DNA of 64,000 bases from a bacterium (GTDB taxonomy: Bacteria > Hydrothermota > Tepidihabitantia > SM23-42 > JAOAFX01). The stretch is taken from the NCBI GenBank assembly GCA_036796695.1, contig DAIRCK010000001.1, positions 16,539-80,538 of the forward strand, written 5' to 3'. Of the stretch, positions 38,783-60,871 are shown piece by piece. A model generated the notes under the pieces. The model worked only from the letters and a program-made list of their open reading frames with translations, was not told the origin of the DNA and did not search any database. Numbering within the stretch: the first letter of the stretch is position 1; the number at the start of each line of letters is the position of its first letter. Position numbers and translations under genes: made by a program.

Positions 38783-38798
38783 AGTAACCTCCAATATT

Positions 38799-42315: not shown

Positions 42316-42735
42316 TTAATCTATGGGTCCGAGTTCGGTAATGGATTTTATAAAATTATTTACAACCTCCTGGAATCTGGCGCCTTCTCCAGCAGAAACC
42401 CATTCCAGTTTAAGGCGTCTATCATCAACACCCATTTCTTTCAATAATAATTTGAGTGCATTATATCTCCTCAACGCCTTATAATTACCTGAAATATAAT
42501 GGCAGTCACCCGGGTGGCATCCCGTGATCAAAACCCCATCCACACCTTTTTTGAATGCAGTCAATATAAACTCTGGTTCAATCCTTCCTGAGCACATCGT
42601 TCTTATTATTCTGAAATTGGGATTCATCTGGAGTCTTGAAACGCCAGCCAGGTCAGCACCTGCATAAGAACACCAGTTACAACAGAAGACGATTATCTTT
42701 GGCTTAAAATTAGTCTTATTGTCTGATTGTCCCAT
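42316..42735 (-). CDS. mvhD: MvhD/FlpD [2Fe-2S] subunit
   Basis: CCNWCSYAGAD, MCSGRI, GCHPGDCHY; start at ATG 42735. Confidence 0.92.
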   Translation of the reverse strand: MGQSDNKTNFKPKIIVFCCNWCSYAGADLAGVSRLQMNPNFRIIRTMCSGRIEPEFILTAFKKGVDGVLITGCHPGDCHYISGNYKALRRYNALKLLLKEMGVDDRRLKLEWVSAGEGARFQEVVNNFIKSITELGPID

Positions 42736-42870
42736 AGTCTGATAGTTCTTTAGTGCGGAGTCTAATTGCCTGAAAATCAAGTGGTCCGAAGATATTAATG
42801 ACTATAAGACCATCTGACCATATGACTATATGACTACTCATAGAATGCCTCCACCATCGCCATTATCTGT
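42695..42870. repeat. Near-identical duplicated hdrA-mvhD junction, copy 1 (copy 2 at offset +4026), with 8-nt-period tracts
   Basis: Direct comparison with 46721-46896. Confidence 0.85.
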
Positions 42871-45800
42871 TGTCTTGTGAATCCATACTGGGTCATTGCA
42901 CCAGAAGGACAGGCAGCAACACAGGTTCCACAACCCTTGCAGAGTGCCTCATTAACACTGGAAATGCGTTTACCATCTTTTTCTTTATATAAAATTGCCT
43001 CATAAGGACATAATGCGCCGCACATACCACAACCCGCACAGAGTTCTTCATTGACTGATGATATTGTTGCCTCTGCATAATATTTCTTATTTGATAAAAT
43101 AGTTGCAACACGTGCAACAGCGGCTTGTGCCTGAATTATAGATTCAGCAATTGTCTTTGGACTGTGAGCCATCCCTGCCACAAACACACCCTCAGTGGCA
43201 AAATCAACTGGTCTCAGTTTTATATGGGCTTCGAGGAAGAACCCATCCTGGTTTAAAGGAACCTTGAGCATCTTAGCAAGTTCAGTATTGCTCGGTTCAG
43301 ACACAATACCTGAAGAAAGAACGAGAAGGTCTGTATCAATATTGAATTCTTCCTTAAGAATTGGTTCAAATACCTTGACTTTCAATCTTTCGTTTTCAAC
43401 CCTTACATCTGGCTTATTTTGATCATATCTTATGAAAACAATACCCTTTTCCCTTGCCTTACGGTATAATTCTTCTTTGAATCCATAGGTGCGTATATCT
43501 TTGTATAAAATATAGATATTTGCGTCGGGATTGAGTTCAAGCAGATTCAAGGCATTTTTTATCGCCTGAGAACAACATATACGGCTGCAATACTTTCTCT
43601 TTTCATCACGGGAACCGACACACTGAATCATTACAATGGTCTTATGGTCTGATAGTCGGATAGTCGTATGGTCTGATCCCCTGATACCCTGATCCCCTGA
43701 TATCCTGATATCCTGATAACCTGATAACCTGATTTCCATCTCCCTCTGGGTGACCACTCTCGGGTCTTTGCCATAGAGATATTCGGTTGGTGTATATTCT
43801 TTTGCACCGGTTGCTACAATTATCACCCCATGCTCAAGTTCAATCATATCCTGACATTTGATTTTTGTTTTGTAATTTCCAACAAAACCAGAAATTTCCT
43901 TGATCTCTGCCCCGGTAAATACCTTTATCAATCGATTGTTTTTAATCTTATCGATCATCCTTTCCAAGAAATACCGGACATCCCTACCTTCAAAAGTTTT
44001 ATAGATATGCCTTATGTTACCACCGAGTTCCTTTTCCTTTTCTACAAGAAAGACCTCAAATCCCTGTTCAGATAAAGATAAGGCTGAACTCATCCCTGTA
44101 ATACCACCACCTATCACCAGCGCCTTTTGAATAACATCTATCTCAACCCTTTTTAAGGGTTTAAGCAACCTTGCCTTTGAAACAGCCATCCTGACAAGGT
44201 CCTTTGCCTTCTCAGTTGCCAAAGCCGGTTCATACATATGTATCCAGGAGCACTGGTCACGAATATTTGCCATTTCAAATAAATATGGATTCAAACCAGC
44301 TTCGCGAATTGTATCTCTAAATAATGGTTCATGTGTCCTCGGCGTGCAGGAAGCAACAACGATTCTATTCAATTTATGTTCATTGATCTTTTCAATGATT
44401 CTTTTCTGGGTATCCTGGGAACAAGTATAAAGATTATTTTCAGCATATACAACATCAGGCAATTGTTTTACATATTCAACAATTTCAGGCACATTTACAT
44501 AACCACCAATATTGATTCCACAATGGCAGACAAAAACTCCAATCCTTGGTTTTTCATTTAATACATCCAGTTCCTCAGGATATTCCTTCTTTGTAACCAG
44601 ACTGCCCCTTGCCTCAGCGAGTAATGCCATTGCACTACCAGCAGCGGCCGATGCCTGGGCTACAGTCTCCGGTATATCCTTTGGACCGGCAAATGCACCA
44701 CAAACAAAAATTCCATCACGGATTGTATCAACTGGAATAAATTCAGAAGTTCTGCAAAAACCATAATTATTCAAGTTTATGTGCAAGTAGCGTGATAATG
44801 TGCGCATATCTGATTTTGGCACAAGACCAACCGACAAAACAACCATATCAAATTCTTCCTGTTTAATAGAACCTTCTTCATCTTCATAATGGACGATCAA
44901 ATTTTTTGTTTCTTGGTTCTCTTCAATCCTTGATACCCCGGCACGAACAAATCTAACTCCATATTCGTTCTTCGCACGATTATAATAATCCTCAAATCCC
45001 TTTCCAAATGTCCTTATATCCATATAAAATATTGTTGTCTCAAGCCCGTTCCCTGAATGTTCCTTCGCAATTATTGCTTCTTTTATTGCATAGGTGCAGC
45101 ATACAGAAGAACAATACCCTTTCCCTATCTGTGGGTCCCTTGAACCCACACACTGGATAAAAGCGATTCTTTTTGGTACCTTACCTTCATAGGGTCTTAG
45201 TAAATGTCCTGAAAATGGTCCTGATGCAGATAAAATACGCTCAAACTCAAGACTCGTTACAACATTTTTATAAACACCATAACCAAAATTTGTATAAACC
45301 TTTGGATCAAATGTATCAACACCAGTTGATAAGATAATTGCACCAACATTTATATCTTCAATGACATCACTATCTTTATACTTTATTGCTCCAGCAAGGC
45401 AGATTTTTTCACAAACACCACAACCAAGACAATTATTTTTATCAATCGCATAGACTGCAGGAACTGCCTGTGGGTATTCAATGTAGATGCTCTTTCTACT
45501 TGTTAAACCCTGGTTAAATCTGTCCGCAATTTCAATTGGACAGTGTTTCTTACATTCTCCACAGCCTGTACATTTTGTGGTATCTACATACCGTGCCTTC
45601 TTACGTACATTTACTACAAAATTTCCTGCTTCACCACTCACCCCTTCAATCTTTGCATCGGGGATGATTTTTATATTCAAATGGCGTGCACATTCTACGA
45701 GTTTCGGTGCCATAATACACATTGAACAATCATTTGTCGGAAATGTCTTGTCAAGCATTGCCATTATTCCACCGATAGATGATGAAGAATCCAGCAAATA

Positions 45801-45908
45801 AACCTTAAACCCAGAGTTCGCCAGGTCAAGCGCTGCCTGTATTCCACCAATACCACCGCCAACGACCATTACTGCACCAATCTTCTGATTACTGAAAGAA
45901 TTACTCAT
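42834..45908 (-). CDS. hdrA: Large HdrA-like flavoprotein (two FAD modules, Fe-S domains), 1024 aa
   Basis: GGGIGG..DKTFPTNDC, IQCVGSRD, VCHCGINIG, second GGGITG, C-terminal ferredoxin. Confidence 0.93.
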   Translation of the reverse strand: MSNSFSNQKIGAVMVVGGGIGGIQAALDLANSGFKVYLLDSSSSIGGIMAMLDKTFPTNDCSMCIMAPKLVECARHLNIKIIPDAKIEGVSGEAGNFVVNVRKKARYVDTTKCTGCGECKKHCPIEIADRFNQGLTSRKSIYIEYPQAVPAVYAIDKNNCLGCGVCEKICLAGAIKYKDSDVIEDINVGAIILSTGVDTFDPKVYTNFGYGVYKNVVTSLEFERILSASGPFSGHLLRPYEGKVPKRIAFIQCVGSRDPQIGKGYCSSVCCTYAIKEAIIAKEHSGNGLETTIFYMDIRTFGKGFEDYYNRAKNEYGVRFVRAGVSRIEENQETKNLIVHYEDEEGSIKQEEFDMVVLSVGLVPKSDMRTLSRYLHINLNNYGFCRTSEFIPVDTIRDGIFVCGAFAGPKDIPETVAQASAAAGSAMALLAEARGSLVTKKEYPEELDVLNEKPRIGVFVCHCGINIGGYVNVPEIVEYVKQLPDVVYAENNLYTCSQDTQKRIIEKINEHKLNRIVVASCTPRTHEPLFRDTIREAGLNPYLFEMANIRDQCSWIHMYEPALATEKAKDLVRMAVSKARLLKPLKRVEIDVIQKALVIGGGITGMSSALSLSEQGFEVFLVEKEKELGGNIRHIYKTFEGRDVRYFLERMIDKIKNNRLIKVFTGAEIKEISGFVGNYKTKIKCQDMIELEHGVIIVATGAKEYTPTEYLYGKDPRVVTQREMEIRLSGYQDIRISGDQGIRGSDHTTIRLSDHKTIVMIQCVGSRDEKRKYCSRICCSQAIKNALNLLELNPDANIYILYKDIRTYGFKEELYRKAREKGIVFIRYDQNKPDVRVENERLKVKVFEPILKEEFNIDTDLLVLSSGIVSEPSNTELAKMLKVPLNQDGFFLEAHIKLRPVDFATEGVFVAGMAHSPKTIAESIIQAQAAVARVATILSNKKYYAEATISSVNEELCAGCGMCGALCPYEAILYKEKDGKRISSVNEALCKGCGTCVAACPSGAMTQYGFTRQQIMAMVEAFYE
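43637..43732. repeat. 12 x 8-nt degenerate tandem array inside hdrA
   Basis: tggtctta tggtctga tagtcgga tagtcgta tggtctga tcccctga taccctga tcccctga tatcctga tatcctga taacctga taacctga. Confidence 0.9.
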
Positions 45909-45958
45909 TCAATCCATCCTCGCATTTAATAGGGCAAAAACCCCACCTTTATTTTCAT

Positions 45959-45993
45959 ATTGTTTAGGATTTAGAATTTCGTATTTAGGATTT
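45959..45993. repeat. 7-nt-period tract (AAATCCT AAATACG AAATTCT AAATCCT on minus strand)
   Basis: Overlaps the stop codon at 45985. Confidence 0.7.
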
Positions 45994-46761
45994 AATACTC
46001 TGGTATACCGGATATCCATCTCTTATCTCCTTCATTGATACATCACCTTTTTCCTGGAGTGAGCAGAGACTCTTAAAGACAAAATCAGGAGTTATATTTA
46101 ACTTTGAGGCAATCTGCGGAACAGTCAATTCATTATTCTTCAGTATTCTTATAATTCGCGCCTTTGTATATTCTTCATATAATATTCTTTCAACTCTTTT
46201 CTCATACTCTTCAGCTAAAATTTTTTCACCATAAACATTCTCTTGCTCAGTTATATGATACTCGACACCAGTCAGGTGTCTGAATCTCTCACCCTGAAGC
46301 ACATGCCTGACTGATAGTAACATATCTTTTGTATCTTCATTTATTTTTATTGGTCCTAAATCTTTTATTCTTTCAATAAATGTGTTAACAAGATTGGCAA
46401 ATCTTTCTCCTTCTGCTGCAGATACCCAATCTAAATATAATCTGTCTTTTTCAATTGTAGTATAGGATAAAATTTTCTGAGTAGCAATAATCCTTTTTTC
46501 TGTATTGTAATTCCCATTCAGATAATGGCAGTCGCCAAAATGGCAACCAAGAACCATAACACCATCAATTCCCTTCAGAAGTGCATTTATTATAAATACT
46601 GGGTCAACCCTTCCCGAACACATCACCCTTATAACTCTTATATTTGGTCGGTATTGAATCCTTGATACACCGGCTAAATCAGCCCCGGCATAAGAACACC
46701 AGTTGCACAAAAATCCGAGTATCTTTGGCTTAAAATTAGTCTTATTGTCTGATTGTCCCAT
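45985..46761 (-). CDS. mvhD: MvhD fused to a helical linker and a C-terminal winged-HTH-like domain
   Basis: LCNWCSYAGAD..GCHFGDCHY; tail IIRILKNNELTVPQIASKLNITPDFVFKSLCSLQEKGDV. Confidence 0.85.
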   Translation of the reverse strand: MGQSDNKTNFKPKILGFLCNWCSYAGADLAGVSRIQYRPNIRVIRVMCSGRVDPVFIINALLKGIDGVMVLGCHFGDCHYLNGNYNTEKRIIATQKILSYTTIEKDRLYLDWVSAAEGERFANLVNTFIERIKDLGPIKINEDTKDMLLSVRHVLQGERFRHLTGVEYHITEQENVYGEKILAEEYEKRVERILYEEYTKARIIRILKNNELTVPQIASKLNITPDFVFKSLCSLQEKGDVSMKEIRDGYPVYQSIKS

Positions 46762-46896
46762 AGTCTGATAGTCCTGTAGTGCAGAGTCTAATTGTCTGAA
46801 AATCAGAGGGTCCGAAGACGTTAATGACTATAAGACCATCTGACCGTATAACTATATGACTACTCATACAACGCCTCCACCATTGCCATAATCTGC
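46721..46896. repeat. Duplicated hdrA-mvhD junction, copy 2
   Basis: See 42695-42870. Confidence 0.85.
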
Positions 46897-49800
46897 TCAT
46901 TGGTAAAGTGTCTCATTGTTATTGCCTGCTGTGGACAGGATGCAGCACAACTACCACAACCCTTACAATAGGCAGATATGACTTCTGAACGATAACCTTT
47001 TTCAGTCTTTTTCAACAAATGTGCCTGATACGCGCACAAGACCTCGCAGATTCCACAACCAATGCATTTTTCTTTATCCACTTCAGCAACTGCAGGCAGG
47101 ACTTCGATTGTATTACTGGCGAGCACAATACCCGCCCTTGCACTCGCTGCCTGAGCCTGGGCAATTGATTCATCAATCGCCTTTGGTGAATGTGCCATAC
47201 CACAGATAAATATTCCATCTGTAGCAAAATCAACAGGACGTAATTTCATATGTGCCTCAAGGAAAAAACCATCCTCATTCAGAGGCACTTTTAATAACTG
47301 GGCAATCTCTTTATTAGATTTGTCCGGTACAATCCCTACTGAAAGAACCACAATGTCAGCAATTATTTCAATCGTTTCATCAAGTATCGGTTCTCTTGCT
47401 CTTACAATCAAGTTCTCTTTATCTATAATAATTTCAGGTTTATATTCATCATCATATCTTATAAATATCACACCCGCATCCCTTGCTTTTTGATAATATA
47501 TTTCATTAAACCCGTATGCCCTTATATCTTTGTAAAAGATAATTACCTCGTTTTCAGGATTTCTCTGTTTAATAAGCAAAGCATTTTTTATCGCCTGAGA
47601 ACAACATATACGGCTGCAATACTTTCTCTCTTCATCCCGCGACCCAACACATTGAATCATTACAATGGTTTTATGGTCTGATAGTCTGATAGTCGGATAG
47701 TCGGATGGTCGGATAGTCGGATGGTCTGATCCCCTGATACCCTGATCCCCTGATATCCTGATATCCTGATAACCTGATAACCTGATTTCCAGCTCCCTCT
47801 GTGTAATTATCCTCGGGTCTTTGCCATAGAAGTATTCGGTTGGTTTATACTCTTTGGCACCGGTTGCAACGATTATTACCCCGTGTTCAATCTCAATTAT
47901 TTCCTGATTATTTTTTCCAATTTCTCGTCTTTCTATTCTTGTATGGAAGTTTCCGATATATCCAGTCACCGATTCTATTTTACTACTTTTATAAATTTTT
48001 ATATTGGGGTGTGATTCAACTTTATTTATCAACGAATTCAAATATTCTTTAACATCCCTTCCATCAATTGTATTATTTATATGCCTTGCATTCCCGCCCA
48101 ATTCTTCCTTCTCTTCTACAAGAAAAACTTCGTAACCCTGGTTTGCCAGACTCAATCCTGCATTCATTCCACTGATTCCACCACCGATAACAAGTGCCTT
48201 CTGAATCACCGGGATAGTAATTGCTGGTAGAGGTTCTAAATAACCTGCCCGGGCACAAGCCATTCTTACAAGGTCCTTTGCCTTAGCTGTTGCCTGTTCA
48301 GGTTCCTGGGAATGAACCCAGGAACACTGATCTCTTATATTTGTGAATTCTAAAAGAAATTTATTCAATCCTTTTTCCCTTATCGTCTCCTGGAATAAAA
48401 CCTCATGGGTTCTTGGTGTGCAGGCAGCAACGACAACCCGGTTAAGTCTATACTTCTCAATCATCTCTTTTATATGTCGTTGTGAATCATCAGAACAGGA
48501 ATATAGATTATTCTCTGCATATACTACATTGGGTAAGGTCTTTGCATATTCAACAACCTCCATCACATTCACTGTTCCGGCAATATTTATCCCGCAATGG
48601 CAGACAAAGACACCAATTCTTGGTGGTTCACCAGAAAAATCAATTTCCGCAGGATATTCAATTTTTTTTGTGAGTGAAAACCTTTGGTCTTTTATCAACT
48701 CAATTGCATTCTGTGCTGCACCGCTTGCCTCAATCACGGTCTCAGGAATATCTTTGGGTGCAGATGCAGTTCCACAGAGAAAAATTCCAGGCTGGATGGT
48801 CTCAACTGTAGAAAATGGAAGGGATTTGAAAAAGTTGAATTCAGTTAGTTCCAAATTCAAAATTTGGGCAAGTTTTTTGACATTATCATCAGGCACCAAT
48901 CCCACCGATAATACAACCATATCAAACTCTTCTTTTATTAATTTACCCTGCTCATCCTCATATTTGAGCAACAGATTTTTGCTCTCGGGTAATTCCTTTA
49001 TTTCTCCGATCATCGCCCATTTGAATCTTATCCCATATTTTTCTTTTGCCCTTTTGTAGTATGCCTCAAAACCCTTGCCAAATGTGCGCATATCCATATA
49101 AAATATTGTGCATTCAAGAGAACGATTATGTTCCTTCATTAAGATCGCCTCTTTTATGGCATAGGCACAGCAGACTGAAGAGCAATACCCCTGACCCGAT
49201 TTTGTATCACGTGAGCCCACACATTGAATAAAGGCAACCCTTTCTGGTTCTCTCTTATCAGATAGTCTTAACAGATGCCCCTGAAAGGGTCCAGATGCAT
49301 TCAATATCCTTTCCAGTTCAATAGATTTTATTACATTTTGATATCTCCCATAACCATACATCGGCTTTAGACGCGGGTCAAAATGTTTAACACCTGTGCC
49401 AATGATGATACTGCCAATATTAATATCAATAATCTTATCACTCAGATTAAAATCAACTGCCTTTGTTGGGCATAGAATCTCACAGACCCTGCATTTACCA
49501 CCCTTTAAAAAATAGGTGCAATGCGCTTTATCAATCACTGCCTTGTTCGGAACTGCCTGGGGAAATGGAACATAAATTGCCTTTCTTTTTCCCAGGCCAG
49601 ATTCAAATTCTGATTCAACCTTAATCGGGCATTTTTGCCAGCAAACACCACAACCATTACACTTTTCCCAGTCCACAAATGGAGATTTTTTCAAAATTCG
49701 CACATTAAAGTTGCCTGGCTTGCCTGATAACTCCAAAAGTTCTGCATAGGTAATTAATTCAATATTTGGATGCCTTCCGGCACTAACAAGTTTCGGAGCA

Positions 49801-50967: not shown

Positions 50968-51089
50968 AAATTCGAAATCCGAGGCACTAAATTCTAAACA
51001 AATCCAAAGAAGAAATAACCACTGTTTGGAGCCTGGAAATTTGCGATTTAAGTATTGCTTAGAATTTAGAATTTTTGTATTAGGATTTA
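50968..51089. repeat. MITE-like element with 7-nt-period inverted arms
   Basis: Left AAATTCG AAATCCG AGGCACT AAATTCT AAACAAAT; right TTAGAATTTAGAATTT..TTAGGATTT. Confidence 0.65.
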
Positions 51090-51583: not shown

Positions 51584-51609
51584 AAATCTCCTGCCTTCTT
51601 CACCCCTAT

Positions 51610-53526: not shown

Positions 53527-53723
53527 TTTTTCTTCTTTCCATTTCCATTACGACTTTCCTGTTTTTTTTTCATAATATAGCTCTGATAAACAGGACATTC
53601 AAAATATCCCAGTTCACATTTTGAATATTCTTTGCCCTTACCCTTGGGAATCATCTTCCTTACCGGAGCAACTGCACAGTAATTTACAATGATTTCTTCA
53701 AGAAATGGACATCTCATACACAT
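53523..53723 (-). CDS. Small four-Cys protein (CPFL..YC..C..CPVY), first gene of the sigma54 operon
   Basis: 66 aa, overlaps the next start (ATGA), sits right after the sigma54 promoter. Confidence 0.7.
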   Translation of the reverse strand: MCMRCPFLEEIIVNYCAVAPVRKMIPKGKGKEYSKCELGYFECPVYQSYIMKKKQESRNGNGKKKK

Positions 53724-53732
53724 ACCTTAATA

Positions 53733-53748
53733 TGCAAAAAACGTGCCT
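53733..53748 (-). promoter_or_regulatory. sigma54 -24/-12 promoter AGGCACGTTTTTTGCA
   Basis: GGCACG-N4-TTGCA at correct spacing. Confidence 0.8.
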
Positions 53749-53818: not shown

Positions 53819-53885
53819 TGTTTATTTTTTAAACAGATATATTTCTCTTTATTTTCTGATATGTTTATTGTTTAATTTTTCAACA
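53819..53885. promoter_or_regulatory. Two 17-nt TGTT-N9-AACA palindromes, candidate enhancer sites
   Basis: 53819-53835 TGTTTATTTTTTAAACA; 53869-53885 TGTTTAATTTTTCAACA. Confidence 0.5.
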
Positions 53886-53944
53886 CATAATATTGATTTT
53901 TAATAGTTGTGATTAAATTCTTTAAAATCTGTTTTAATGAATTC

Positions 53945-55858: not shown

Positions 55859-55877
55859 GTTAAATGCTCCTTGTATA

Positions 55878-55905
55878 ATTATATCAAACTCAAACCCGAA
55901 GTCAA
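55878..55905 (-). promoter_or_regulatory. sigma70-like promoter TTGACT-N16-TATAAT
   Basis: Motif read directly. Confidence 0.7.
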
Positions 55906-55950
55906 GTAATGCATCAACTTACCATTTTTATAGAATTTTTCCAAATCAAC

Positions 55951-57300
55951 TCACCTCTTCAACCCATACTTTTCAATTTTATTATACAATGTCACACGAT
56001 TGATACCCAAAACCTCGGCAGCTTTTTTTATATTCCAGTCACAGGTACTAAGAACATTCAGAATATGCTCTTTTTCAACAATCTCAAGACGCAGGTCTTT
56101 TGTGATAAGTTTAGGGATTGAAAATTTATCAATCACATTCCTGGGCAGGTCTTTTTTGCCTATTTTATTCCCTTTTGATACAACGACTGAATGTTCGATT
56201 AAATTTTCAAGTTCCCGCACATTACCTGGCCAATCATAGGTCATCAACAATTCCAACGCATCCGGACTGATTTCTGAAATATTCTTTCTATTCTCTATAT
56301 TGAATTTATTCAAAAAATGTTCTATTAGCAAAGGTATATCTTCTTTTCTCTCGCGTAGTGGTGGAATCTCAATTGTAATGACATTTAATCGGTAATACAG
56401 ATCCTCACGGAAAGTCCCTTTTTTTATCATTTCTTCAAGATTTTTATTTGTTGCAGCGATTACCCTCGTATCTACTTTTATGAGTTCTTTTCCTCCTATC
56501 CTTCTGAATTCACGCTCTTGCAAAAATCTCAAAAGGTCAACCTGGGTCTTGGGACTGATATCACCGATTTCATCAAGAAAAAGTGTTCCCTGGTCTGCCA
56601 TCTCAATCCTGCCTTTGTGCTGACTTGTTGCACCAGTAAATGCACCTTTTTCATAACCAAATAACTCAGCCTCAAGGAGTGTCTCAGGCATTGCACCACA
56701 GGCTGTAGCAATAAAAGGACCTTTATTTCTTGGACTTAAATTGTGAATTGCCCTTGCAACAAGTTCTTTTCCTGTTCCACTCTCCCCCCGGATCAAAACA
56801 GTCGACTTTGTTGGTGCTACAGTCTTTATCAATTCAAAAATTTTTTGCATCTTTGGGCTCTTACCGATAAGATCTTCTAATTGAAACCGCTTTGCAAGTT
56901 CCTTGCGCAAAATTATATTCTCTTTAATAATCTCACGGTGTTCAAACAATTTCTTGATAATAATATTTATCTCTTCAGGATTGAATGGCTTCATAACATA
57001 ATCCGCAGCACCTTCCTTCATTGCCATAACTGCACTATCAACACTTCCATGACCGGTTATTATTATCACTGGTAGATCCGGCTTTATCTCACGCAATCTT
57101 CTCAATAGTTCAATACCACCCATTTTTGGCATCTTCAAATCAACGAGGGCAACATCCCAGTCATCCAACTCTACCTGCTCAATGGCTTTAAACCCATCAT
57201 CAACTGCAGTCGTTTGATAGCCTAAATTACTAAGCCATTCACTTAGGGCATCACGAACAATCTCTTCATCATCAACAATCAAAATCTTATATTTCCTCAT
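55951..57300 (-). CDS. sigma54-dependent NtrC/AtoC-family activator
   Basis: GESGTGKE, GAFTGA, WPGNVRELEN, Fis HTH. Confidence 0.95.
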   Translation of the reverse strand: MRKYKILIVDDEEIVRDALSEWLSNLGYQTTAVDDGFKAIEQVELDDWDVALVDLKMPKMGGIELLRRLREIKPDLPVIIITGHGSVDSAVMAMKEGAADYVMKPFNPEEINIIIKKLFEHREIIKENIILRKELAKRFQLEDLIGKSPKMQKIFELIKTVAPTKSTVLIRGESGTGKELVARAIHNLSPRNKGPFIATACGAMPETLLEAELFGYEKGAFTGATSQHKGRIEMADQGTLFLDEIGDISPKTQVDLLRFLQEREFRRIGGKELIKVDTRVIAATNKNLEEMIKKGTFREDLYYRLNVITIEIPPLRERKEDIPLLIEHFLNKFNIENRKNISEISPDALELLMTYDWPGNVRELENLIEHSVVVSKGNKIGKKDLPRNVIDKFSIPKLITKDLRLEIVEKEHILNVLSTCDWNIKKAAEVLGINRVTLYNKIEKYGLKR

Positions 57301-57311
57301 AGTGATTAAAA

Positions 57312-57383
57312 ATTATACACAAATTACTTTTTAAATCAAGCCCATTATTAACCCCTTGATTTTTTAGTTCTTCTATATATAAT
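57312..57383. promoter_or_regulatory. Back-to-back sigma70-like promoters TTGATT-N16-TATAAT (minus 57312-57339; plus 57356-57383)
   Basis: Both read directly. Confidence 0.65.
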
Positions 57384-57404
57384 TTCACCACTTATGGAGG
57401 CAAA

Positions 57405-57896
57405 ATGATTGATTTAAAAAATTCTGACAACAATTTTAAATGGGAAATTATTAAGCAGGAAGGTGGTGAAGGGTTGCTCAAATGTTTCGGATGCAGTGAT
57501 TGTTCAGCCAGTTGTCCTGTGAGGTATCTTGATGAACGGTATAATCCAAGGAAGATAATCAGACTCACACTCCTGGGAATGAAGAACGAAGTTCTCTCTT
57601 CACCATTCTTATGGCTATGTGCCCATTGTCATGCCTGCACAGAACGGTGCCCACAGGGCATTCATGTCGCAGAGGTCATAAATGCGATAAAGAATTATGC
57701 AGTAAAACAGGGATATTGTCCTGAGGGTTTAAAGGTCCAGTTGAATCTGCTCAATAATTCAGGCAGGCTTTATGAACTTGAAGATTTTGATTTAAAAAAG
57801 AGACAGAGAATGGGACTACCTGAACTTGCTAAAAAGATATCTGATGTCTCAAAAATCTTTGCATCAACCAAGATATTTGAAAGGATTCCAAAATGA
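57405..57896 (+). CDS. hdrC: Heterodisulfide reductase subunit C (second copy)
   Basis: CFGCSDCSASCP, CAHCHACTERCPQG. Confidence 0.92.
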   Translation: MIDLKNSDNNFKWEIIKQEGGEGLLKCFGCSDCSASCPVRYLDERYNPRKIIRLTLLGMKNEVLSSPFLWLCAHCHACTERCPQGIHVAEVINAIKNYAVKQGYCPEGLKVQLNLLNNSGRLYELEDFDLKKRQRMGLPELAKKISDVSKIFASTKIFERIPK

Positions 57897-58747
57897 AAAA
57901 ATATGCATTATTCCTTGGATGCACAGTGCCGGTTCGGGCACAACACTATGAACTTGCAACAAGAAATGTGGCAAAGGAATTTGGTATTGTATTTATTGAT
58001 TTGAAAGAAGGTTCCTGTTGTGGATTTCCTCTCAAGGCACTCGATGCAGAAACATCCCTTTTGATGGCAGCAAGGAATGTGGGCCTGGCAAGCAATCTCG
58101 GGCTTGATGTTGTTACATTATGTAATTCCTGTACTGCGATGCTATCCGATGCCCAGAGTAAATTAAAAGAAGAAAAATTTCGTAGAAAGTTTACTGAACT
58201 CGGCTTTACTTATCCAAATGAAATCAAAGTTCGTCATTTTGTTCGTATGCTCTATGAAGATATTGGCATTGAAAATCTCAAAAAGGCGATAAAGAGACCA
58301 CTCAAGAATCTTAGAATACTTTCCCATTATGGTTGTCATTATCTCAGACCTTCTTATCTTCACTCATTTGATAATGTAGAAAATCCCCATACCCTTGATG
58401 AACTCGTTGGTTTGACCGGTGCCACAACTGTTGATTATCAAGAAAAGAAGTTGTGCTGTGGTGGTTCGGTACTGGGTGTTGATGAAGAACTGGCAGTAAA
58501 GATGGCAAATCAAAAACTTTCGGTAGCAAAAAATAATAATGTGGATGCAATGATCTCAATCTGTCCTTTCTGCACTGTAATGTATGAGGATAATCAGCGG
58601 AAAGTTGAAGCAAAATTCAATACGGTATTTAACTTGCCTGTTCTATATTATCCACAACTCTTAGGACTGGGTCTTGGTCTGGCACCTGATGCCTGTGGTT
58701 TAAAATTCAATCGTATAAAGCCAGATGGAATTCTATCAAAATTATAA
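57893..58747 (+). CDS. hdrB: Heterodisulfide reductase subunit B (second copy)
   Basis: SCCGFP, YGCHYLRP, LCCGGS, CPFC. Confidence 0.93.
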   Translation: MKKYALFLGCTVPVRAQHYELATRNVAKEFGIVFIDLKEGSCCGFPLKALDAETSLLMAARNVGLASNLGLDVVTLCNSCTAMLSDAQSKLKEEKFRRKFTELGFTYPNEIKVRHFVRMLYEDIGIENLKKAIKRPLKNLRILSHYGCHYLRPSYLHSFDNVENPHTLDELVGLTGATTVDYQEKKLCCGGSVLGVDEELAVKMANQKLSVAKNNNVDAMISICPFCTVMYEDNQRKVEAKFNTVFNLPVLYYPQLLGLGLGLAPDACGLKFNRIKPDGILSKL

Positions 58748-58759
58748 AAGGAGTTTAAG

Positions 58760-60871
58760 ATGAGATTAATTCTTTGCCATTGTAACGGTTTGATCAATAT
58801 ATCCGATTTAGATTTTGGTCCTGATATAAAGATTGAATGGTATGATGACCTTTGTAAAGGAGGAGTAAAGACCGGTGATGGTGAAAAGTTGGTGATCGCT
58901 GGTTGTTCTCCATCCCTGATGGAAGGACTATTTCCTGATGCAGATGCTGAATTTGTGAATCTCAAAGACCATATAGTCTTGATGAATCATTCATTAGATA
59001 AGGCAAAGGCATTGCTCAAAGCTGCAATTGAAAAGGCAAAGACAGGACCCGAAATCAAGAAAAAGACCTTTGCGATAAAATCCAGATCCGCAGCGGTGAT
59101 TGGTTCTGGTGTTGCTGGACTCGACTTAACAAAAGCACTGACCACTGCCGGAATAAAGACATATCTCATTGAAAAAGAACCTTTTCTGGGTGGCACAGTG
59201 GCAAAACTTGATAGACTCTATCCTGAAGCCACACCCTGGAGCCATACGATTCTGCCACTGATTTCAGGTGTGGTAAAAAATAAGGATGTCGAGATATTTA
59301 CAAATAGTGAGATAACTGAAATAAAAGGTGAAATCGGAAATTATAAAATCCAGATTAAGATAAAACCCCGGGGTGTGATTGATTGTAATAACTGTGGTGC
59401 CTGTACATCGGTCTGCCCAATAACTGTCCAGGACAATGGTAGAATTCGTAAGGCAATCTATACATTAAACACATATCCAAATATCTATGCAATTGATTTC
59501 AATGCCTGTAATAAATGTGGAGAATGCGTAAAGGTGTGTCCGAAGAAAATAGACCTAAATGAAAAGGAAAAGATTGTTGATATAAATGCGGGAACGATTG
59601 CGGTTGCAACCGGGCTAAAATTCTATGACCTGAAAAAAGTTGAAGAATATGGGTATGGCAGATACCCAAATGTAATGAATGTTCTGGAGTTTGAAAGGAA
59701 GATTGCTGATGGTTCTCTTGTTCCCAAAAAGGTTGTGTTTATCTGTTGTGCTGGTTCACGCGACAAAAACCATCTACCCTATTGTTCAAGGATATGCTGT
59801 TTCCTTGCCTTAAAGGAAGCAAAACTTGTAATTGACCGCTATCCGGATACAAGGGTCTTTGTCTGTGCTATGGATATGCGCAGTTATGGAAATTTTGAAT
59901 ATTTCTATGATACATTGCGTGAACTTGGTGTGACATTTATAAAAGGAAAGCCTTCTGAGGTTATAAAACAGAATGGTAATCTTGTGGTTAAAGTTGAAGA
60001 CCTTTATACGAATGAACTCCTTGAGATTGATGCGGATACGGTTGTCTTAAGCAGTGGCTTTGTCCCTGATAAAGAGACATTTGATAAACTCGGTATAAAG
60101 ATTGATGGAGACTTTCCTGTGTATTTTGAAAGTGGTAAACTTGGAAATATTGAAATGCCCAGAGGAATATTTATAGCAGGCTCATCAAGTTTTCCTGCAG
60201 GTGTTGCTGAGACACTTGTTGATTCAAGAAAATCTGCATTTTCAATCATTAATTTATTACAGAAAGATAATATTGAATCAAACCAGCCCATTGCCTATGT
60301 AAATGAAGATTACTGCAGTGTATGTAAAACCTGTATAAGTGCCTGTCCATACAATGCAATTGTAATTGAGAACGATAAAATAAAAATTCGCCCTGATTTA
60401 TGTATGGGTTGTGGGATATGTGCCAGTGCCTGTCCAGCAGCTGCAAGCAGGCTTGAAAAATTTACGGCAAAAGAAATTTCTGCCTGGATTGGAAATTTAA
60501 CGAAACCAGGTGACATAATCACTCTCCTCTGCAAATGGTCTGCATACAATGCCACAGAGACCGCAGCATATACGAATGTCCATTATCCAGAGAATGTGAA
60601 GATCCTGAGGGTGCCATGCAGTGGTGCAGTAGAACCGAACCATATAATCCAGGCACTGAATCTGGGTGCCAGGGCTGTGCTTATAGGTGGTTGTTATCCA
60701 GATGCCTGCCACTATGCAAAAGGCAATTTTAGGGCAAAGGCAAGAGAACAGATCTTAAAAGAAACCCTGGATTTTTTAGGACTATCTAAAAACTGTGTCC
60801 GTCTCGAATGGATAGGCAGGGATGAGGCAAAGAAATTTGAGCAGATAATAAATGAGATGAATCAGGCATAA
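58760..60871 (+). CDS. hdrA: HdrA-MvhD fusion (QmoB-like architecture)
   Basis: CHC N-terminus, GSGVAG FAD motif, two ferredoxin domains, C-terminal PCSGAV..GGCYPDACHY. Confidence 0.88.
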   Translation: MRLILCHCNGLINISDLDFGPDIKIEWYDDLCKGGVKTGDGEKLVIAGCSPSLMEGLFPDADAEFVNLKDHIVLMNHSLDKAKALLKAAIEKAKTGPEIKKKTFAIKSRSAAVIGSGVAGLDLTKALTTAGIKTYLIEKEPFLGGTVAKLDRLYPEATPWSHTILPLISGVVKNKDVEIFTNSEITEIKGEIGNYKIQIKIKPRGVIDCNNCGACTSVCPITVQDNGRIRKAIYTLNTYPNIYAIDFNACNKCGECVKVCPKKIDLNEKEKIVDINAGTIAVATGLKFYDLKKVEEYGYGRYPNVMNVLEFERKIADGSLVPKKVVFICCAGSRDKNHLPYCSRICCFLALKEAKLVIDRYPDTRVFVCAMDMRSYGNFEYFYDTLRELGVTFIKGKPSEVIKQNGNLVVKVEDLYTNELLEIDADTVVLSSGFVPDKETFDKLGIKIDGDFPVYFESGKLGNIEMPRGIFIAGSSSFPAGVAETLVDSRKSAFSIINLLQKDNIESNQPIAYVNEDYCSVCKTCISACPYNAIVIENDKIKIRPDLCMGCGICASACPAAASRLEKFTAKEISAWIGNLTKPGDIITLLCKWSAYNATETAAYTNVHYPENVKILRVPCSGAVEPNHIIQALNLGARAVLIGGCYPDACHYAKGNFRAKAREQILKETLDFLGLSKNCVRLEWIGRDEAKKFEQIINEMNQA

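What the first reader, a model, noticed from the sequence alone, without database searches (positions are those of the whole stretch)
42316..60871. Signal-controlled multi-copy Hdr/MvhD island with no electron-input enzyme
Seen: hdrC-hdrB-hdrA(1044)-mvhD/HTH-hdrA(1024)-mvhD on the minus strand, downstream of a sigma54 promoter. A divergent sigma70-type hdrC-hdrB-hdrA/mvhD unit lies on the other side, with five signalling proteins between them. No mvhAG, fdh, flx, apr or dsr genes are in the window. Established: HdrA is the flavin-based bifurcating subunit, and MvhD docks hydrogenase or formate dehydrogenase. The two large HdrAs each carry two FAD modules, so there are five flavin modules in total. 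Inference: interchangeable bifurcating complexes switched by a Cache-sensed metabolite, with an unknown donor and disulfide acceptor in a non-methanogen. This is my best candidate for an undescribed system here.
Basis: partly seen in the sequence, partly recalled or inferred. Interest (0 to 1): 0.78.

Follow-up and report, generated by a model that had tools for sequence, protein, structure and literature searches.

The report
Regulated double-HdrA heterodisulfide reductase island
A WOR-3 bacterium carries a conserved, signal-regulated gene island for two heterodisulfide-reductase-type electron-bifurcating enzymes built from known parts; the enzyme that feeds them electrons and the disulfide they reduce are encoded elsewhere and remain unidentified.

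Summary
The region 42316-60871 holds hdrC-hdrB, two ~1000-aa HdrAs, each followed by an mvhD, on the minus strand. A divergent hdrC-hdrB-hdrA::mvhD unit lies on the plus strand. Four two-component proteins, not five, and a 64-aa Cys-rich ORF lie between them. A sigma54 promoter with two upstream palindromes heads the minus-strand operon. No hydrogenase, Fdh, Flx, MetF, Apr or Dsr is in the 64 kb window.

Most parts belong to described classes.
- The large HdrAs are "type II" fused-dimer HdrAs, known from ANME and alkane-oxidising archaea, acetogens, and BamE of class II benzoyl-CoA reductase.
- The 258-aa MvhD carries a C-terminal winged helix, like the BamF adaptor.
- The plus-strand unit is HdrA2B2C2-like.

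The whole island is conserved in about 16 further WOR-3-type loci. None has a hydrogenase or Fdh within 10 kb. Sister variants carry NAD(P)H modules in cis: a GltD insertion, NuoF-like or Flx-like genes. In Bathyarchaeia the same HdrA-MvhD-HdrA-MvhD module is followed by mvhGA. A 2025 survey reports mvhADG plus hdrABC in 34 of 181 WOR-3 MAGs.

The missing donor is therefore most likely encoded in trans, not a sign of a new system. I judge this a new variant of a known kind, of moderate interest.

The parts
57356..57383 (+). sigma70-like promoter (TTGATT-16-TATAAT) of the plus-strand hdrCBA::mvhD unit
   Evidence: Consensus scan. Both hexamers are invariant in the alignment of the divergent intergenic region of 5 WOR-3 loci plus the window. 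Function is inferred.
57405..57896 (+). hdrC (163 aa), 2x[4Fe-4S] ferredoxin-like subunit
   Evidence: Fer4_8/9/17. TIGR03290 CoB_CoM_SS_C at 98 bits, below the 160-bit cut-off. Both CxxCxxCxxxCP motifs are present.
57893..58747 (+). hdrB (284 aa), two CCG domains
   Evidence: PF02754 twice. TIGR03288 at 256 bits, cut-off 345. All ten CCG cysteines are present.
58760..60871 (+). hdrA::mvhD fusion (703 aa), type Ia / HdrA2-like
   Evidence: FlpD domain at residues 586-702 plus the HdrA core. NF040770 HdrA2 at 512 bits over positions 58-766 of 777, cut-off 1100. It lacks the Cys194/Cys197 pair.
55951..57300 (-). NtrC-type sigma54 activator (REC-AAA+-HTH_8, 449 aa)
   Evidence: Sigma54_activat 2e-74, Response_reg, HTH_8. 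Best NCBIfam hit is AtoC at 506 bits, below its cut-off.
53945..55858 (-). sensor histidine kinase: TM, ~280-aa extracytoplasmic sCache_3 region, TM, HAMP, HisKA, HATPase (637 aa)
   Evidence: sCache_3_3 1.8e-34, HAMP, HisKA, HATPase_c. Hydrophobic segments at about residues 8-42 and 324-355.
53819..53885 (-). two palindromes TGTTTAA-N3-TTAAACA (53819-53835 and 53869-53885), candidate activator binding sites about 80 and 130 bp upstream of the -24 element
   Evidence: These are the only two sites with <=1 mismatch in the window; 6 sites at <=2 mismatches against 1.26 expected. Both are conserved in the alignment of 7 loci. Binding is inferred.
53733..53748 (-). sigma54 (-24/-12) promoter AGGCACGTTTTTTGCA
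   Evidence: 2 sites at <=1 mismatch against 0.29 expected. Conserved upstream of the REC-HK gene in L001-L004, L006 and L008.
53523..53717 (-). 64-aa four-Cys ORF (MRCPFLEEIIVNYCAVAPVRKMIPKGK...), first gene after the sigma54 promoter, function unknown
   Evidence: tblastn finds it in 7 WOR-3 loci. Only 10 database proteins match, and every one with a taxon label is WOR-3. C3, C14, C34 and C41 are invariant. No Pfam or NCBIfam hit. The AlphaFold model is uninformative, pLDDT 49.6.
52405..53526 (-). cytoplasmic hybrid REC-HisKA-HATPase kinase (373 aa)
   Evidence: Its start overlaps the stop of the small ORF (ATGA). Conserved in all WOR-3-type loci.
51610..52404 (-). REC-REC protein without an output domain (264 aa); its stop overlaps the hdrC start
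   Evidence: Two Response_reg domains. Conserved directly upstream of hdrC in WOR-3-type loci.
51080..51613 (-). hdrC (177 aa)
   Evidence: Fer4_17/8/9. TIGR03290 at 115 bits. Both cluster motifs are present.
50021..50896 (-). hdrB (291 aa), active-site subunit with two non-cubane cluster motifs
   Evidence: Aligns residues 1-291 to residues 1-291 of solved methanogen HdrB (9sfi_C, 5odc_B; E about 1e-66), with all ten cysteines kept.
46860..49994 (-). hdrA copy 1 (1044 aa), type II fused dimer. Module N (1-445) has FAD, the inserted 2x[4Fe-4S] ferredoxin domain and the Cys60/Cys63 pair. Module C (456-1044) has the N-terminal FeS domain, FAD without an inserted ferredoxin domain or Cys197, and the C-terminal 2x[4Fe-4S] domain.
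   Evidence: Piecewise alignment to 5odc_A. E228/K281 and the module-C Glu/K803 are kept. The second cluster motif of the inserted ferredoxin domain is the extended form Cx8CxxCxxxCP, typical of copy 1.
45985..46761 (-). mvhD-long (258 aa): MvhD [2Fe-2S] domain, helical linker and C-terminal winged helix
   Evidence: FlpD 1e-52. 5odc_D at 1e-49. AlphaFold pLDDT 87.7; TM 0.84-0.88 to solved MvhD chains; the C-terminal domain matches ArsR/SmtB/Zalpha winged helices. Cys19, 22, 48, 73 and 78 are invariant in 35 homologues.
42834..45908 (-). hdrA copy 2 (1024 aa), type II fused dimer with a canonical CxxCxxCxxxC second motif in the inserted ferredoxin domain
   Evidence: It is 59% identical to copy 1, with 83-87% identical DNA tracts indicating gene conversion.
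42316..42780 (-). mvhD-short (ORF 154 aa from TTG; probable start ATG at 42735, 139 aa)
   Evidence: FlpD 1e-54. Its first 14 residues from the ATG are identical to those of mvhD-long. A sigma70-like promoter for the next gene follows at 42269-42241.

Best explanation
The region is a conserved Hdr island of a WOR-3 bacterium. It encodes two separate cytoplasmic heterodisulfide-reductase-type flavin/iron-sulfur enzymes.

Unit A (plus strand, sigma70-like promoter) is HdrC-HdrB-HdrA::MvhD, an HdrA2B2C2-like enzyme. By analogy it takes electrons directly from reduced ferredoxin or a two-electron cofactor and needs no separate input enzyme.

Unit B (minus strand) is one sigma54-dependent operon. 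Its order is a four-Cys peptide, REC-HK, REC-REC, HdrC, HdrB, HdrA(II)-1, MvhD with a winged helix, HdrA(II)-2, and a short MvhD. The neighbouring membrane Cache kinase and NtrC-type activator probably switch it on by binding two upstream palindromes. The co-transcribed REC proteins probably give feedback.

Each fused HdrA is an intramolecular pseudo-heterodimer with one complete electron path:
- MvhD [2Fe-2S] passes electrons to the C-terminal ferredoxin domain of module C.
- They move to the N-terminal cluster of module C, which is completed by the Cys60/63 pair of module N.
- They reach the FAD of module N (Lys281), where they split.
- One branch goes through HdrC to the non-cubane clusters of HdrB, which reduce a disulfide.
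- The other goes through the inserted ferredoxin domain to ferredoxin.

The enzymes that feed (or, in reverse, drain) electrons dock on the MvhD adaptors and are encoded elsewhere in the genome. The most likely partner of the short MvhD is a group 3c [NiFe] hydrogenase (MvhAG). The most likely partner of copy 1 with the winged-helix MvhD is an NAD(P)H-linked module.

Shown: gene content, cofactor motifs, promoter elements, conservation, and the contexts of relatives. Inferred: complex composition, donors, the disulfide substrate, and the direction of the reaction.
For: - Domain and motif maps.
- The fused HdrA is collinear with BamE. It has Cys60/63 and Lys281 where BamE has Cys59/62 and Lys280. 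In BamE the N-terminal FAD is the bifurcating one (bioRxiv 10.64898/2026.04.10.717634).
- The N-terminal-domain/Cys197 complementarity matches that described for fused HdrA (PMC9012536). The proteins fit the type II class (PMC12054007).
- MvhD-long has the MvhD fold plus a winged helix. BamF uses such a winged helix to dock BamI.
- Regulation: the sigma54 promoter, the palindromes and the gene order are conserved.
- Donor, hydrogenase line: the HdrA-MvhD(long)-HdrA-MvhD(short) module is followed by hdrCB-mvhG-mvhA-hycI, or directly by mvhGA, in Bathyarchaeia-type loci and in L087. MvhA and MvhG homologues were each found in 27 of the 162 loci.
- Donor, NAD(P)H line: sister WOR-3-type loci have a GltD insertion in copy 1 (L007, L091; also the single large HdrA of L102), NuoF-like genes (L099) or Flx-like genes (L100). 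Moorella HdrA, with the same GltD insertion, oxidises NADH (PMC9430772).
- 34 of 181 WOR-3 MAGs are reported to have mvhADG plus hdrABC (PMC12542636).
- HdrA2B2C2 works with ferredoxin or F420H2 alone (PMC5296606).
Against: - No donor gene was found in the 64 kb window, 4.5 kb beyond its right edge (L080), or within 10 kb of any WOR-3-type island.
- I could not search the rest of this genome. My MvhA search returned only Sedimentisphaerales-type proteins.
- In the visible part of the WOR-3 survey table, many MAGs with hdrA lack mvhA.
- No candidate disulfide carrier (DsrC, GcvH-like) is in the window.
- One hdrCB pair serves two HdrA/MvhD pairs, so stoichiometry and complex composition are open.
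- Both FAD sites keep the Lys/Glu pair, unlike BamE, so which flavin bifurcates is uncertain.
- WOR-3 promoter rules are not established.
Confidence: 0.6

Rival explanations
1. The two units are interchangeable bifurcating complexes with a new, non-hydrogenase, non-NAD(P)H donor and a new acceptor, forming an undescribed system.
For: - No donor lies in cis in any of about 17 WOR-3-type islands.
- The WOR-3-specific four-Cys peptide is at the head of the operon.
- The role of group 3c hydrogenase/Hdr in bacteria is called unresolved in the literature (PMC6472368).
Against: - All catalytic parts fall into described classes.
- Relatives of the same operon carry ordinary donors: mvhGA, GltD, NuoF-like, Flx-like.
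- The HdrB and HdrC paralogues are only 45% and 54% identical and are always kept together, which speaks against redundancy.
Confidence: 0.15
2. All products of the sigma54 operon form one supercomplex. The two different fused HdrAs pair with each other, as BamE dimerises. Each brings its own adaptor and input, and both share HdrBC. This would couple two inputs or two bifurcation events in one machine.
For: - The order copy 1 - MvhD-long - copy 2 - MvhD-short is kept across WOR-3, Bathyarchaeia, Thermoplasmata and other lineages with a single hdrCB.
- Copy-specific motifs are old.
- BCRII shows that fused HdrA units dimerise and that two bifurcating modules can be coupled.
Against: - Some Bathyarchaeia loci have only one HdrA(II) with either the long or the short MvhD plus hdrCB-mvhGA (L017, L023, L009), so each pair can stand alone.
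- No multimer prediction or biochemistry is available.
Confidence: 0.2
3. The machinery runs mainly in reverse (confurcation). It would oxidise reduced ferredoxin and a dithiol to make H2 or NAD(P)H, acting as a regulated redox valve for a fermenter rather than for H2-driven energy conservation.
For: - Hdr-type bifurcation is reversible in principle, and a reverse role was proposed for GltD-type HdrA plus MvhADG (PMC12054007).
- The window encodes fermentative and beta-oxidation-type enzymes: thiolase, 3-hydroxyacyl-CoA dehydrogenase, Zn-ADH, peptidases.
- The regulators most resemble AtoS/AtoC, below cut-off.
Against: Direction cannot be read from sequence. The WOR-3 survey interprets Mvh-Hdr as hydrogenotrophic.
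Confidence: 0.25
4. The winged helix of MvhD-long binds DNA, making the protein a redox-sensing transcription factor rather than a docking adaptor.
For: - The fold resembles ArsR/SmtB/MarR repressors.
- Sub-threshold hits to HTH_5, MarR_2 and TrmB.
- The module also occurs as stand-alone ~100-130-aa proteins.
Against: - No basic residue is conserved in the predicted recognition helix or wing across 35 homologues.
- The protein sits between structural genes in many lineages.
- In the only solved case (BamF) the winged helix contacts a protein partner.
Confidence: 0.1
5. The partner is a MetVF-type methylene-tetrahydrofolate reductase, as in the Moorella/Sporomusa hdrCBA-mvhD-metVF system.
For: Same gene order hdrC-hdrB-hdrA-mvhD and the same kind of two-module HdrA (PMC9430772; PMC9012536).
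Against: No PF02219-type MetF was found in the window or recognised in the related WOR-3 loci.
Confidence: 0.05

Closest known systems
Type II (fused double) HdrA of ANME/alkane-oxidising archaea and Bathyarchaeia (Chadwick et al. 2022, PMC9012536; Microbiol Spectr 2025, PMC12054007)
   Same: - One polypeptide with two thioredoxin-reductase/FAD modules.
- One module has the N-terminal FeS domain but no Cys197; the other has Cys197 but no N-terminal domain.
- The Lys/Glu pair is kept at both flavins.
- 53-55% identity over the full length to Bathyarchaeia and Syntrophoarchaeum proteins.
- The same HdrA-MvhD(long)-HdrA-MvhD(short) order occurs in Bathyarchaeia.
   Different: - The host is a bacterium (WOR-3), which those surveys did not cover.
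- No FdhB/molybdopterin or MvhGA genes lie next to it.
- It is embedded in a sigma54/two-component operon.
- Module order here is 'Cys197 module first, N-terminal-domain module second', the reverse of the order Chadwick et al. describe for HdrA3/4.
BamE-BamF-BamD of class II benzoyl-CoA reductase, Geobacter metallireducens (cryo-EM preprint, bioRxiv 10.64898/2026.04.10.717634)
   Same: - Fused HdrA dimer with near-identical numbering of the Cys pair (59/62 there, 60/63 here) and the flavin lysine (280 there, 281 here).
- An MvhD-type adaptor more than 100 aa longer than usual, with a winged helix-turn-helix.
   Different: - Separate HdrB and HdrC here instead of the HdrD-like BamD.
- No tungsten BamBC and no BamGHI genes.
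- No selenocysteine.
- The second flavin keeps Lys (K803), where BamE has Gln768.
- The predicted long MvhD here has one MvhD domain plus a helical linker, not two Rossmann domains.
HdrCBA-MvhD of acetogens (Moorella thermoacetica, Sporomusa ovata), associated with MetVF (PMC9430772)
   Same: - Gene order hdrC-hdrB-hdrA-mvhD.
- HdrA has an extra N-terminal TrxR module, and its C-terminal HdrA part lacks the inserted ferredoxin domain.
- The relatives L007 and L091 have the Moorella-type GltD insertion (about 1480 aa).
   Different: - No metVF.
- No GltD/NADH module in the window's proteins.
- Two HdrA/MvhD pairs instead of one.
HdrA2B2C2 of Methanosarcina acetivorans (Yan, Wang & Ferry 2017, PMC5296606)
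   Same: The plus-strand unit has HdrA fused C-terminally to MvhD, with its own HdrB and HdrC. The authors noted such homologues in Bacteria.
   Different: - It scores 512 bits against the HdrA2 model, cut-off 1100.
- A bacterium is unlikely to use CoM-S-S-CoB, and probably not F420.
MvhAGD-HdrABC of hydrogenotrophic methanogens (PDB 5ODC, 7BKB, 8RVU)
   Same: - HdrB aligns end to end with all ten cysteines.
- HdrC, MvhD and every HdrA domain are recognisably homologous. Module N gives 420 bits over 356 residues to 5odc_A.
   Different: - HdrA is fused or rearranged.
- No MvhAG or Fdh in cis.
- Non-methanogen host.

Membership tests
Canonical MvhAGD-HdrABC | HdrB with two CCG motifs (ten Cys) for two non-cubane [4Fe-4S] clusters | tested here: met
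   Both HdrB proteins have them. The 291-aa protein aligns residues 1-291 to residues 1-291 of 9sfi_C and 5odc_B.
Canonical MvhAGD-HdrABC | Single-module HdrA (~650 aa) with N-terminal domain, inserted ferredoxin domain and C-terminal ferredoxin domain, acting as a homodimer | tested here: not met
   The HdrAs here are 1044 and 1024 aa two-module fusions with the domains split between modules. The third is an MvhD fusion.
Canonical MvhAGD-HdrABC | [NiFe] hydrogenase MvhA/MvhG (or FdhAB) encoded with or near mvhD | tested here: not met
   Absent from the 64 kb window and from the flanks of all WOR-3-type loci. The rest of the genome could not be searched.
Canonical MvhAGD-HdrABC | CoM-S-S-CoB as substrate | not testable with these tools
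   Needs biochemistry. Coenzyme M/B biosynthesis is not expected in WOR-3.
Type II (fused) HdrA | Two TrxR/FAD modules in one chain | tested here: met
   Two GxGxxG Rossmann starts and two TrxR cores in each large HdrA.
Type II (fused) HdrA | [quoted passage not shown] | tested here: met
   NDCSMC at residues 58-63 in module N. Module C has the CHC...ACTPR...CSW N-terminal domain and no Cys at the aligned site.
Type II (fused) HdrA | Lys409/Glu356 equivalents at both flavins | tested here: met
   E228/K281 in module N, and the module-C Glu plus K803, in the 1044-aa protein. The same motifs occur in the 1024-aa protein.
HdrA2B2C2 (type Ia) | HdrA C-terminally fused to MvhD, with adjacent hdrB and hdrC | tested here: met
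   (FlpD at residues 586-702 of the 703-aa protein) and the gene order at 57405-60871.
HdrA2B2C2 (type Ia) | Reaches the NCBIfam HdrA2 model cut-off | tested here: not met
   512 bits against a cut-off of 1100.
HdrA2B2C2 (type Ia) | Ferredoxin- or F420H2-dependent heterodisulfide reduction | not testable with these tools
   Needs enzyme assays.
Class II benzoyl-CoA reductase (BamB-I) | Fused HdrA (BamE) plus a long MvhD adaptor with a winged helix (BamF) | tested here: met
   compared with the description. The comparison is with published text, not coordinates; the entry is not in the PDB copies searched.
Class II benzoyl-CoA reductase (BamB-I) | Tungsten AOR-type BamB/BamC, HdrD-like BamD and NuoEFG-like BamGHI in the cluster | tested here: not met
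   None in the window.
Acetogen HdrCBA-MvhD-MetVF | Order hdrC-hdrB-hdrA-mvhD with a two-module HdrA | tested here: met
   compare.
Acetogen HdrCBA-MvhD-MetVF | metV/metF in the same cluster | tested here: not met
   No MetF-type protein in the window or recognised in related WOR-3 loci.
FlxABCD-HdrABC | flxABCD (FAD/NAD subunit plus FeS subunits) next to hdrCBA | tested here: not met
   Absent here. Homologous c4-c5-c7 genes are present in Desulfobacterales loci and in the WOR-3-type locus L100.
Sulfur-oxidiser sHdr-LbpA system | Small HdrA without ferredoxin domains, hdrC1B1A-hyp-C2B2 order, lipoate-binding protein genes | tested here: not met
   The architecture differs, and there is no GcvH/LbpA-like gene in the window. 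GcvH-like genes do occur in 7 related loci.
Sigma54-dependent operon | -24 GG / -12 GC promoter with correct spacing upstream of the first gene | tested here: met
Sigma54-dependent operon | Cognate bacterial enhancer-binding protein and upstream binding sites | tested here: met
   The NtrC-type gene is adjacent, and there are two conserved palindromes. Actual binding was not tested.
Sigma54-dependent operon | rpoN in the genome; RpoN-dependent transcription | not testable with these tools

The most novel reading that the evidence does not exclude
The two non-identical fused-dimer HdrAs, their two different MvhD adaptors (one with a winged-helix docking domain) and the single HdrBC assemble into one heteromeric machine. 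It would merge two different electron inputs, for example H2 through MvhAG and NAD(P)H or another donor through the winged-helix adaptor, on one disulfide-reducing site. This would be a bacterial dual-input bifurcating/confurcating Hdr. Its expression would be set by a dedicated sigma54 phosphorelay that includes a WOR-3-specific four-Cys peptide as a redox or metal sensor.
Probability: 0.15. Interest if true: 0.7.

Novelty: new variant of a known kind. Interest (0 to 1): 0.42.

Why it matters
Hdr/MvhD modules are among the most widespread and least understood redox enzymes of uncultured anaerobes. What they reduce outside methanogens, and what feeds them, is a long-standing open question.

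This island adds three things:
- A clean, conserved bacterial example of the tandem type II HdrA architecture, so far discussed mainly for archaea and never characterised biochemically in this form.
- A comparative series of sister operons in which the same scaffold carries GltD, NuoF-like, Flx-like or MvhGA inputs, with DsrC or GcvH-like neighbours in some. The series narrows the candidate donors and disulfide carriers to test.
- A defined regulatory handle: a Cache kinase, an NtrC-type activator, a sigma54 promoter with palindromes, and a lineage-specific Cys peptide.

It does not by itself reveal a new kind of system.

Tried and rejected
- **Looking for the source genome.** The exact 1044-aa HdrA is not on record. 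Other window proteins map only to short Logan contigs (L080-L082). These add 4.5 kb beyond the right edge (SMC, an SRP54/Zeta_toxin-family protein, a VTT-domain protein) and no donor.
- **Searching for a WOR-3 MvhA.** A bacterial MvhA query (L058) returned 120 near-identical hits; the few with a taxon label are Sedimentisphaerales or Planctomycetes. It gave no information on WOR-3.
- **Supplement of the WOR-3 survey.** The stored tables are cut before the columns for the relevant subgroup (order SM23-42). Per-MAG co-occurrence of the island and mvhA could not be read.
- **'Scar of a deleted GltD domain' in copy 1.** HCTYFLKGG resembles HCIDFLK...GGG in L007 and L091. I rejected the idea because the same extended Cx7-8CxxCxxxC motif occurs in L008, L103/L105 and Desulforapulum L037.
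- **67-aa ORF called between hdrC and hdrB.** I rejected it as a gene. Its 'peptide' matches several intergenic spacers in other WOR-3 loci, so it is a repeated DNA element.
- **RNA folds of the intergenic spacers.** One of four reaches z = -2.5; the others are not above shuffles.
- **Structure of the 64-aa peptide.** pLDDT 49.6, not usable.
- **Independent tandem duplication in each lineage, as the NJ trees suggest.** I rejected this in favour of one old tandem with gene conversion. Copy-specific motifs are shared across lineages, while a variable loop and DNA tracts are homogenised within genomes.
- **BLAST counts for a GltD query.** Unusable because of cross-hits to HdrA Rossmann and ferredoxin parts.
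- **Literature search for MvhD with a winged helix or HTH.** Found only the BCRII preprint and an unrelated genome paper.

Full report
**1. What is there.**

On the minus strand, in reading direction:
- NtrC-type sigma54 activator, 55951-57300.
- sCache_3-HAMP histidine kinase, 53945-55858.
- A 418-nt spacer.
- A 64-aa ORF, 53523-53717.
- REC-HisKA-HATPase, 52405-53526.
- REC-REC, 51610-52404.
- hdrC, 51080-51613, and hdrB, 50021-50896.
- hdrA of 1044 aa, 46860-49994.
- mvhD of 258 aa, 45985-46761.
- hdrA of 1024 aa, 42834-45908.
- mvhD, 42316-42780, probably starting at the ATG at 42735.

On the plus strand, diverging from the activator gene: hdrC 57405-57896, hdrB 57893-58747 and hdrA::mvhD 58760-60871.

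The next genes on either side are unrelated. They are a PorV/PorQ-family outer-membrane protein and an SBP_bac_5 protein with a second kinase/activator pair. Each has its own sigma70-like promoter match.

Scans of most remaining ORFs of the window found no hydrogenase, formate dehydrogenase, Flx, MetF, Apr or Dsr. A tblastn with MvhA, MvhG, DsrC and GcvH-like queries also found nothing.

**2. Host.**

The closest relatives of the HdrA, MvhD and small-ORF proteins are annotated 'candidate division WOR-3 bacterium', at 63-92% identity. One of them, L003 (QZM1.Bin.155), is classified in order SM23-42 with 37.8% GC, matching the window. Flanking housekeeping genes (dxr, ispD, surE) are syntenic with L004, L005 and L035.

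**3. Anatomy of the large HdrAs.**

Piecewise alignment to the solved HdrA 5odc_A gives this map:
- Residues 13-368 match HdrA 147-497, the FAD core with the inserted 2x[4Fe-4S] ferredoxin domain.
- Residues 456-690 match HdrA 2-236, the N-terminal FeS domain and the start of a second FAD core.
- The alignment then jumps over the inserted ferredoxin domain.
- Residues about 697-1043 match HdrA 314-650, the rest of the FAD core and the C-terminal 2x[4Fe-4S] domain.

Module N keeps the NDCSMC pair (Cys60/Cys63, equivalent to Cys194/197). Module C has no cysteine there. The Glu/Lys pair at the flavin is kept in both modules (E228/K281, and the module-C Glu plus K803). The 1024-aa paralogue has the same layout.

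This is the complementary 'fused HdrA' described for ANME HdrA3/4 and for Moorella (PMC9012536). It was classified as type II HdrA in 2025 (PMC12054007). The acetogen proteins have the same plan (PMC9430772).

The only solved example is BamE of class II benzoyl-CoA reductase. There the N-terminal flavin (Lys280, next to Cys59/Cys62) bifurcates and the second flavin (Gln768) is structural (bioRxiv 10.64898/2026.04.10.717634). The near-identical numbering here (C60/C63, K281) shows collinearity. Unlike BamE, the second flavin here keeps its lysine.

**4. Other subunits.**

- Both HdrB proteins keep all ten CCG cysteines. The 291-aa one aligns end to end with methanogen HdrB.
- Both HdrC proteins keep two cluster motifs.
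- Both MvhDs keep the five invariant cysteines.
- The long MvhD was modelled with pLDDT 87.7. It has an MvhD domain (TM 0.84-0.88 to 5odc_D, 8rvu_F and 7bkb_F), a helical linker and a C-terminal winged helix resembling ArsR/SmtB/Zalpha domains.
- The long form has thousands of database relatives. The best 120 are nearly all about 250-280 aa and include Lokiarchaeota.
- Its extension alone matches 107 representative clusters, some of them stand-alone small proteins.
- No basic residue is conserved in the predicted recognition helix.
- BamF, an MvhD adaptor with a winged helix, uses it to dock BamI. A docking role is therefore the better guess, by analogy only.

The plus-strand HdrA::MvhD is an HdrA2-like (type Ia) protein, below the NCBIfam cut-off. 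The archetype HdrA2B2C2 accepts electrons directly from ferredoxin or F420H2, with no separate input enzyme (PMC5296606).

**5. Regulation.**

- A -24/-12 element (AGGCACGTTTTTTGCA, 53748-53733) lies in the spacer before the small ORF. Only two sites with <=1 mismatch exist in the window, against 0.29 expected.
- The other site is a perfect match at 36265-36250, next to the second activator.
- The element is conserved at the same position in six related loci.
- Two palindromes TGTTTAA-N3-TTAAACA lie about 80 and 130 bp upstream of it. They are the only <=1-mismatch matches in the window and are conserved too.
- The kinase has two hydrophobic segments flanking about 280 residues that include the Cache domain.
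- Gene overlaps (ATGA between the small ORF and REC-HK; REC-REC overlapping hdrC) and the absence of terminator-like sites in the spacers fit one transcript from the small ORF to the last mvhD.
- The plus-strand unit has a conserved TTGATT-16-TATAAT.

Promoter function is inferred from consensus and conservation only.

**6. Relatives and what they carry.**

A scan of species-representative genomes and one of metagenome contigs gave 159 related loci. I mapped these with my own ORF calling and clustering and annotated cluster representatives with Pfam.

(a) The WOR-3-type island has the REC-HK/REC-REC leader before hdrCB, often with the divergent hdrCBA::mvhD.
- It recurs in L001-L008, L091, L095, L099, L100, L102, L127 and L135.
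- None has a hydrogenase or Fdh within 10 kb.

(b) Variation within this group affects the input side.
- L007 and L091 have a 1475-1482-aa copy 1, and L102 a single 1491-aa HdrA, each with a GltD-like NAD(P)H module. It is inserted exactly in the second cluster motif of the inserted ferredoxin domain.
- L099 has a NuoF-like gene.
- L100 has Flx-like c4-c5-c7 genes.

(c) In Bathyarchaeia-type loci and in L087, the module HdrA-MvhD(long)-HdrA-MvhD(short) is followed by hdrCB-mvhG-mvhA-hycI, or directly by mvhGA. MvhA and MvhG homologues were each found in 27 of the 162 loci.

(d) A large group at 54-55% identity has HK-hdrC-hdrB-HdrA(GltD, ~1500 aa)-MvhD(long)-HdrA(II)-MvhD(short).

(e) Desulfobacterales clusters combine a type II HdrA with HdrD-like, NuoE/F-like, Flx-like, FdhA-like or FrhB-like proteins, and with DsrC in 9 loci. 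GcvH-like lipoyl-carrier genes are next to the cluster in 7 loci.

So the scaffold is widespread and modular. When a donor is in cis, it is a hydrogenase after the short MvhD, or an NAD(P)H module in or next to copy 1 and the long MvhD.

A survey of 181 WOR-3 MAGs reports mvhADG together with hdrABC in 34 of them (PMC12542636). I could not check this genome.

**7. History of the two copies.**

- The paralogues are 59% identical, with 83-87% identical DNA tracts.
- The two mvhD genes share identical first 14 codons.
- A hypervariable loop in module C co-varies between the two copies within each genome.
- Copy-specific motifs are shared across distant lineages: copy 2 has CxGCGxCExxC, and copy 1 has the extended motif or a GltD insertion.

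The tandem is therefore old and partly homogenised by gene conversion. That explains why distance trees group the copies by lineage and why short-read assemblies break inside hdrA.

**8. Most likely function.**

The island encodes two Hdr-type enzymes with intact disulfide-reducing sites.
- One (plus strand) is probably constitutive and self-sufficient.
- The other is induced through the Cache kinase/NtrC/sigma54 route. It is built from two fused-dimer HdrAs, each with its own adaptor.
- The donors dock on the adaptors and are encoded elsewhere. The best candidates are MvhAG for the short MvhD and an NAD(P)H-linked partner for copy 1 with the long MvhD.

Three things cannot be read from sequence:
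- the disulfide (candidates from relatives are a lipoyl-protein or a DsrC-like protein);
- the direction of the reaction;
- whether the two HdrAs form one complex.

**9. Verdict.**

'Undescribed system with no input enzyme' overstates it. The parts are described classes, and the missing input is a matter of gene location for which relatives offer ordinary candidates.

What is new:
- the bacterial (WOR-3) setting of the tandem type II architecture;
- its dedicated sigma54 phosphorelay, with a lineage-specific four-Cys peptide;
- the comparative series that points to testable donors and acceptors.

Novelty: new variant of a known kind. Interest: 0.42.

Noticed in passing
window 53523-53717 (-): A 64-aa ORF with four invariant cysteines and an invariant RKMIPKG motif is the first gene after the sigma54 promoter. 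Its ATG lies only about 15 nt after the -12 element, so the transcript may be nearly leaderless. Only 10 database proteins match, and every one with a taxon label is WOR-3. It belongs to no family, and the structure model is uninformative.
   Followed up: partly
window 51046-51089 and 45951-45994 (-): A repeated intergenic element (TCTAAATTCTAAGCAATA-like, able to form an ~11-bp hairpin) sits in the hdrC-hdrB and mvhD-hdrA spacers. Gene callers turn it into a 67-aa ORF, but its 'peptide' matches several hdr-operon spacers in other WOR-3 loci. The fold energies are not above shuffles.
   Followed up: partly
window 34598-42229 (-): A second signalling set sits just downstream of the island: SBP_bac_5 protein (40706-42229), HAMP kinase (38902-40899) and NtrC-type activator (37340-38794). 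A perfect sigma54 promoter TGGCACGAAATTTGCA at 36265-36250 lies in front of a single REC gene (35610-35969) and an LVIVD-repeat protein (34598-35584). The same promoter sequence is present in L035.
   Followed up: partly
window 36452-37257 (-): A UPF0175 / DUF3368 gene pair, a toxin-antitoxin-like arrangement, is inserted between the second activator gene and its putative target promoter.
   Followed up: no
window 42635-42869 vs 46661-46895; 43548-43854 vs 47577-47907: Tracts of 83-87% DNA identity occur between two paralogues that are otherwise 59% identical at protein level. A low-complexity loop (residues ~737-775, RLSGYQDIRISGDQGIRGSDHPTIRPSDYPTIRLSDH) differs between genomes but matches between the two copies of each genome. 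This points to ongoing gene conversion. Public short-read assemblies break inside hdrA at these tracts (L081, L082).
   Followed up: yes
L016 3777-4985; L050, L102, L103, L105, L106, L147: GcvH-like (lipoyl-carrier) genes lie next to type II HdrA/MvhD/HdrBC clusters in 7 related loci, and DsrC genes in 9 Desulfobacterales loci. Both are candidate disulfide substrates. Neither is in the window.
   Followed up: partly
L007 9998-14446; L091; L102; L109-L152 group; L021/L050: A GltD-like NAD(P)H module of about 440-550 aa is inserted at one fixed point of copy 1, the second cluster motif of the inserted ferredoxin domain. It appears in several unrelated lineages and gives the same architecture as the NADH-oxidising Moorella HdrA. 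Copy 1 without the insertion carries an extended Cx7-8CxxCxxxC motif at that point.
   Followed up: yes
L035 (CAYQKL010000006.1): The closest species-level relative (86% identity) lacks the whole sigma54 hdr operon between hdrCB(A::mvhD) and the SBP/kinase/activator set. It has only broken HdrA fragments further on. This is either a real deletion variant or a co-assembly chimera.
   Followed up: no
window 57303-57319 (+): A weaker copy of the palindrome (TGATTAAAAATTATACA, 2 mismatches) abuts the start of the activator gene and overlaps its -10 match. It is invariant in 4 of 5 related loci (one substitution in L003 and L008) and may be an autoregulation site.
   Followed up: partly
window 45985-46344 (-), C-terminal 119 aa of MvhD-long: The linker plus winged-helix module also exists as stand-alone ~100-130-aa proteins and inside a few very large proteins. 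It matches 107 representative clusters at E<=1e-3.
   Followed up: no
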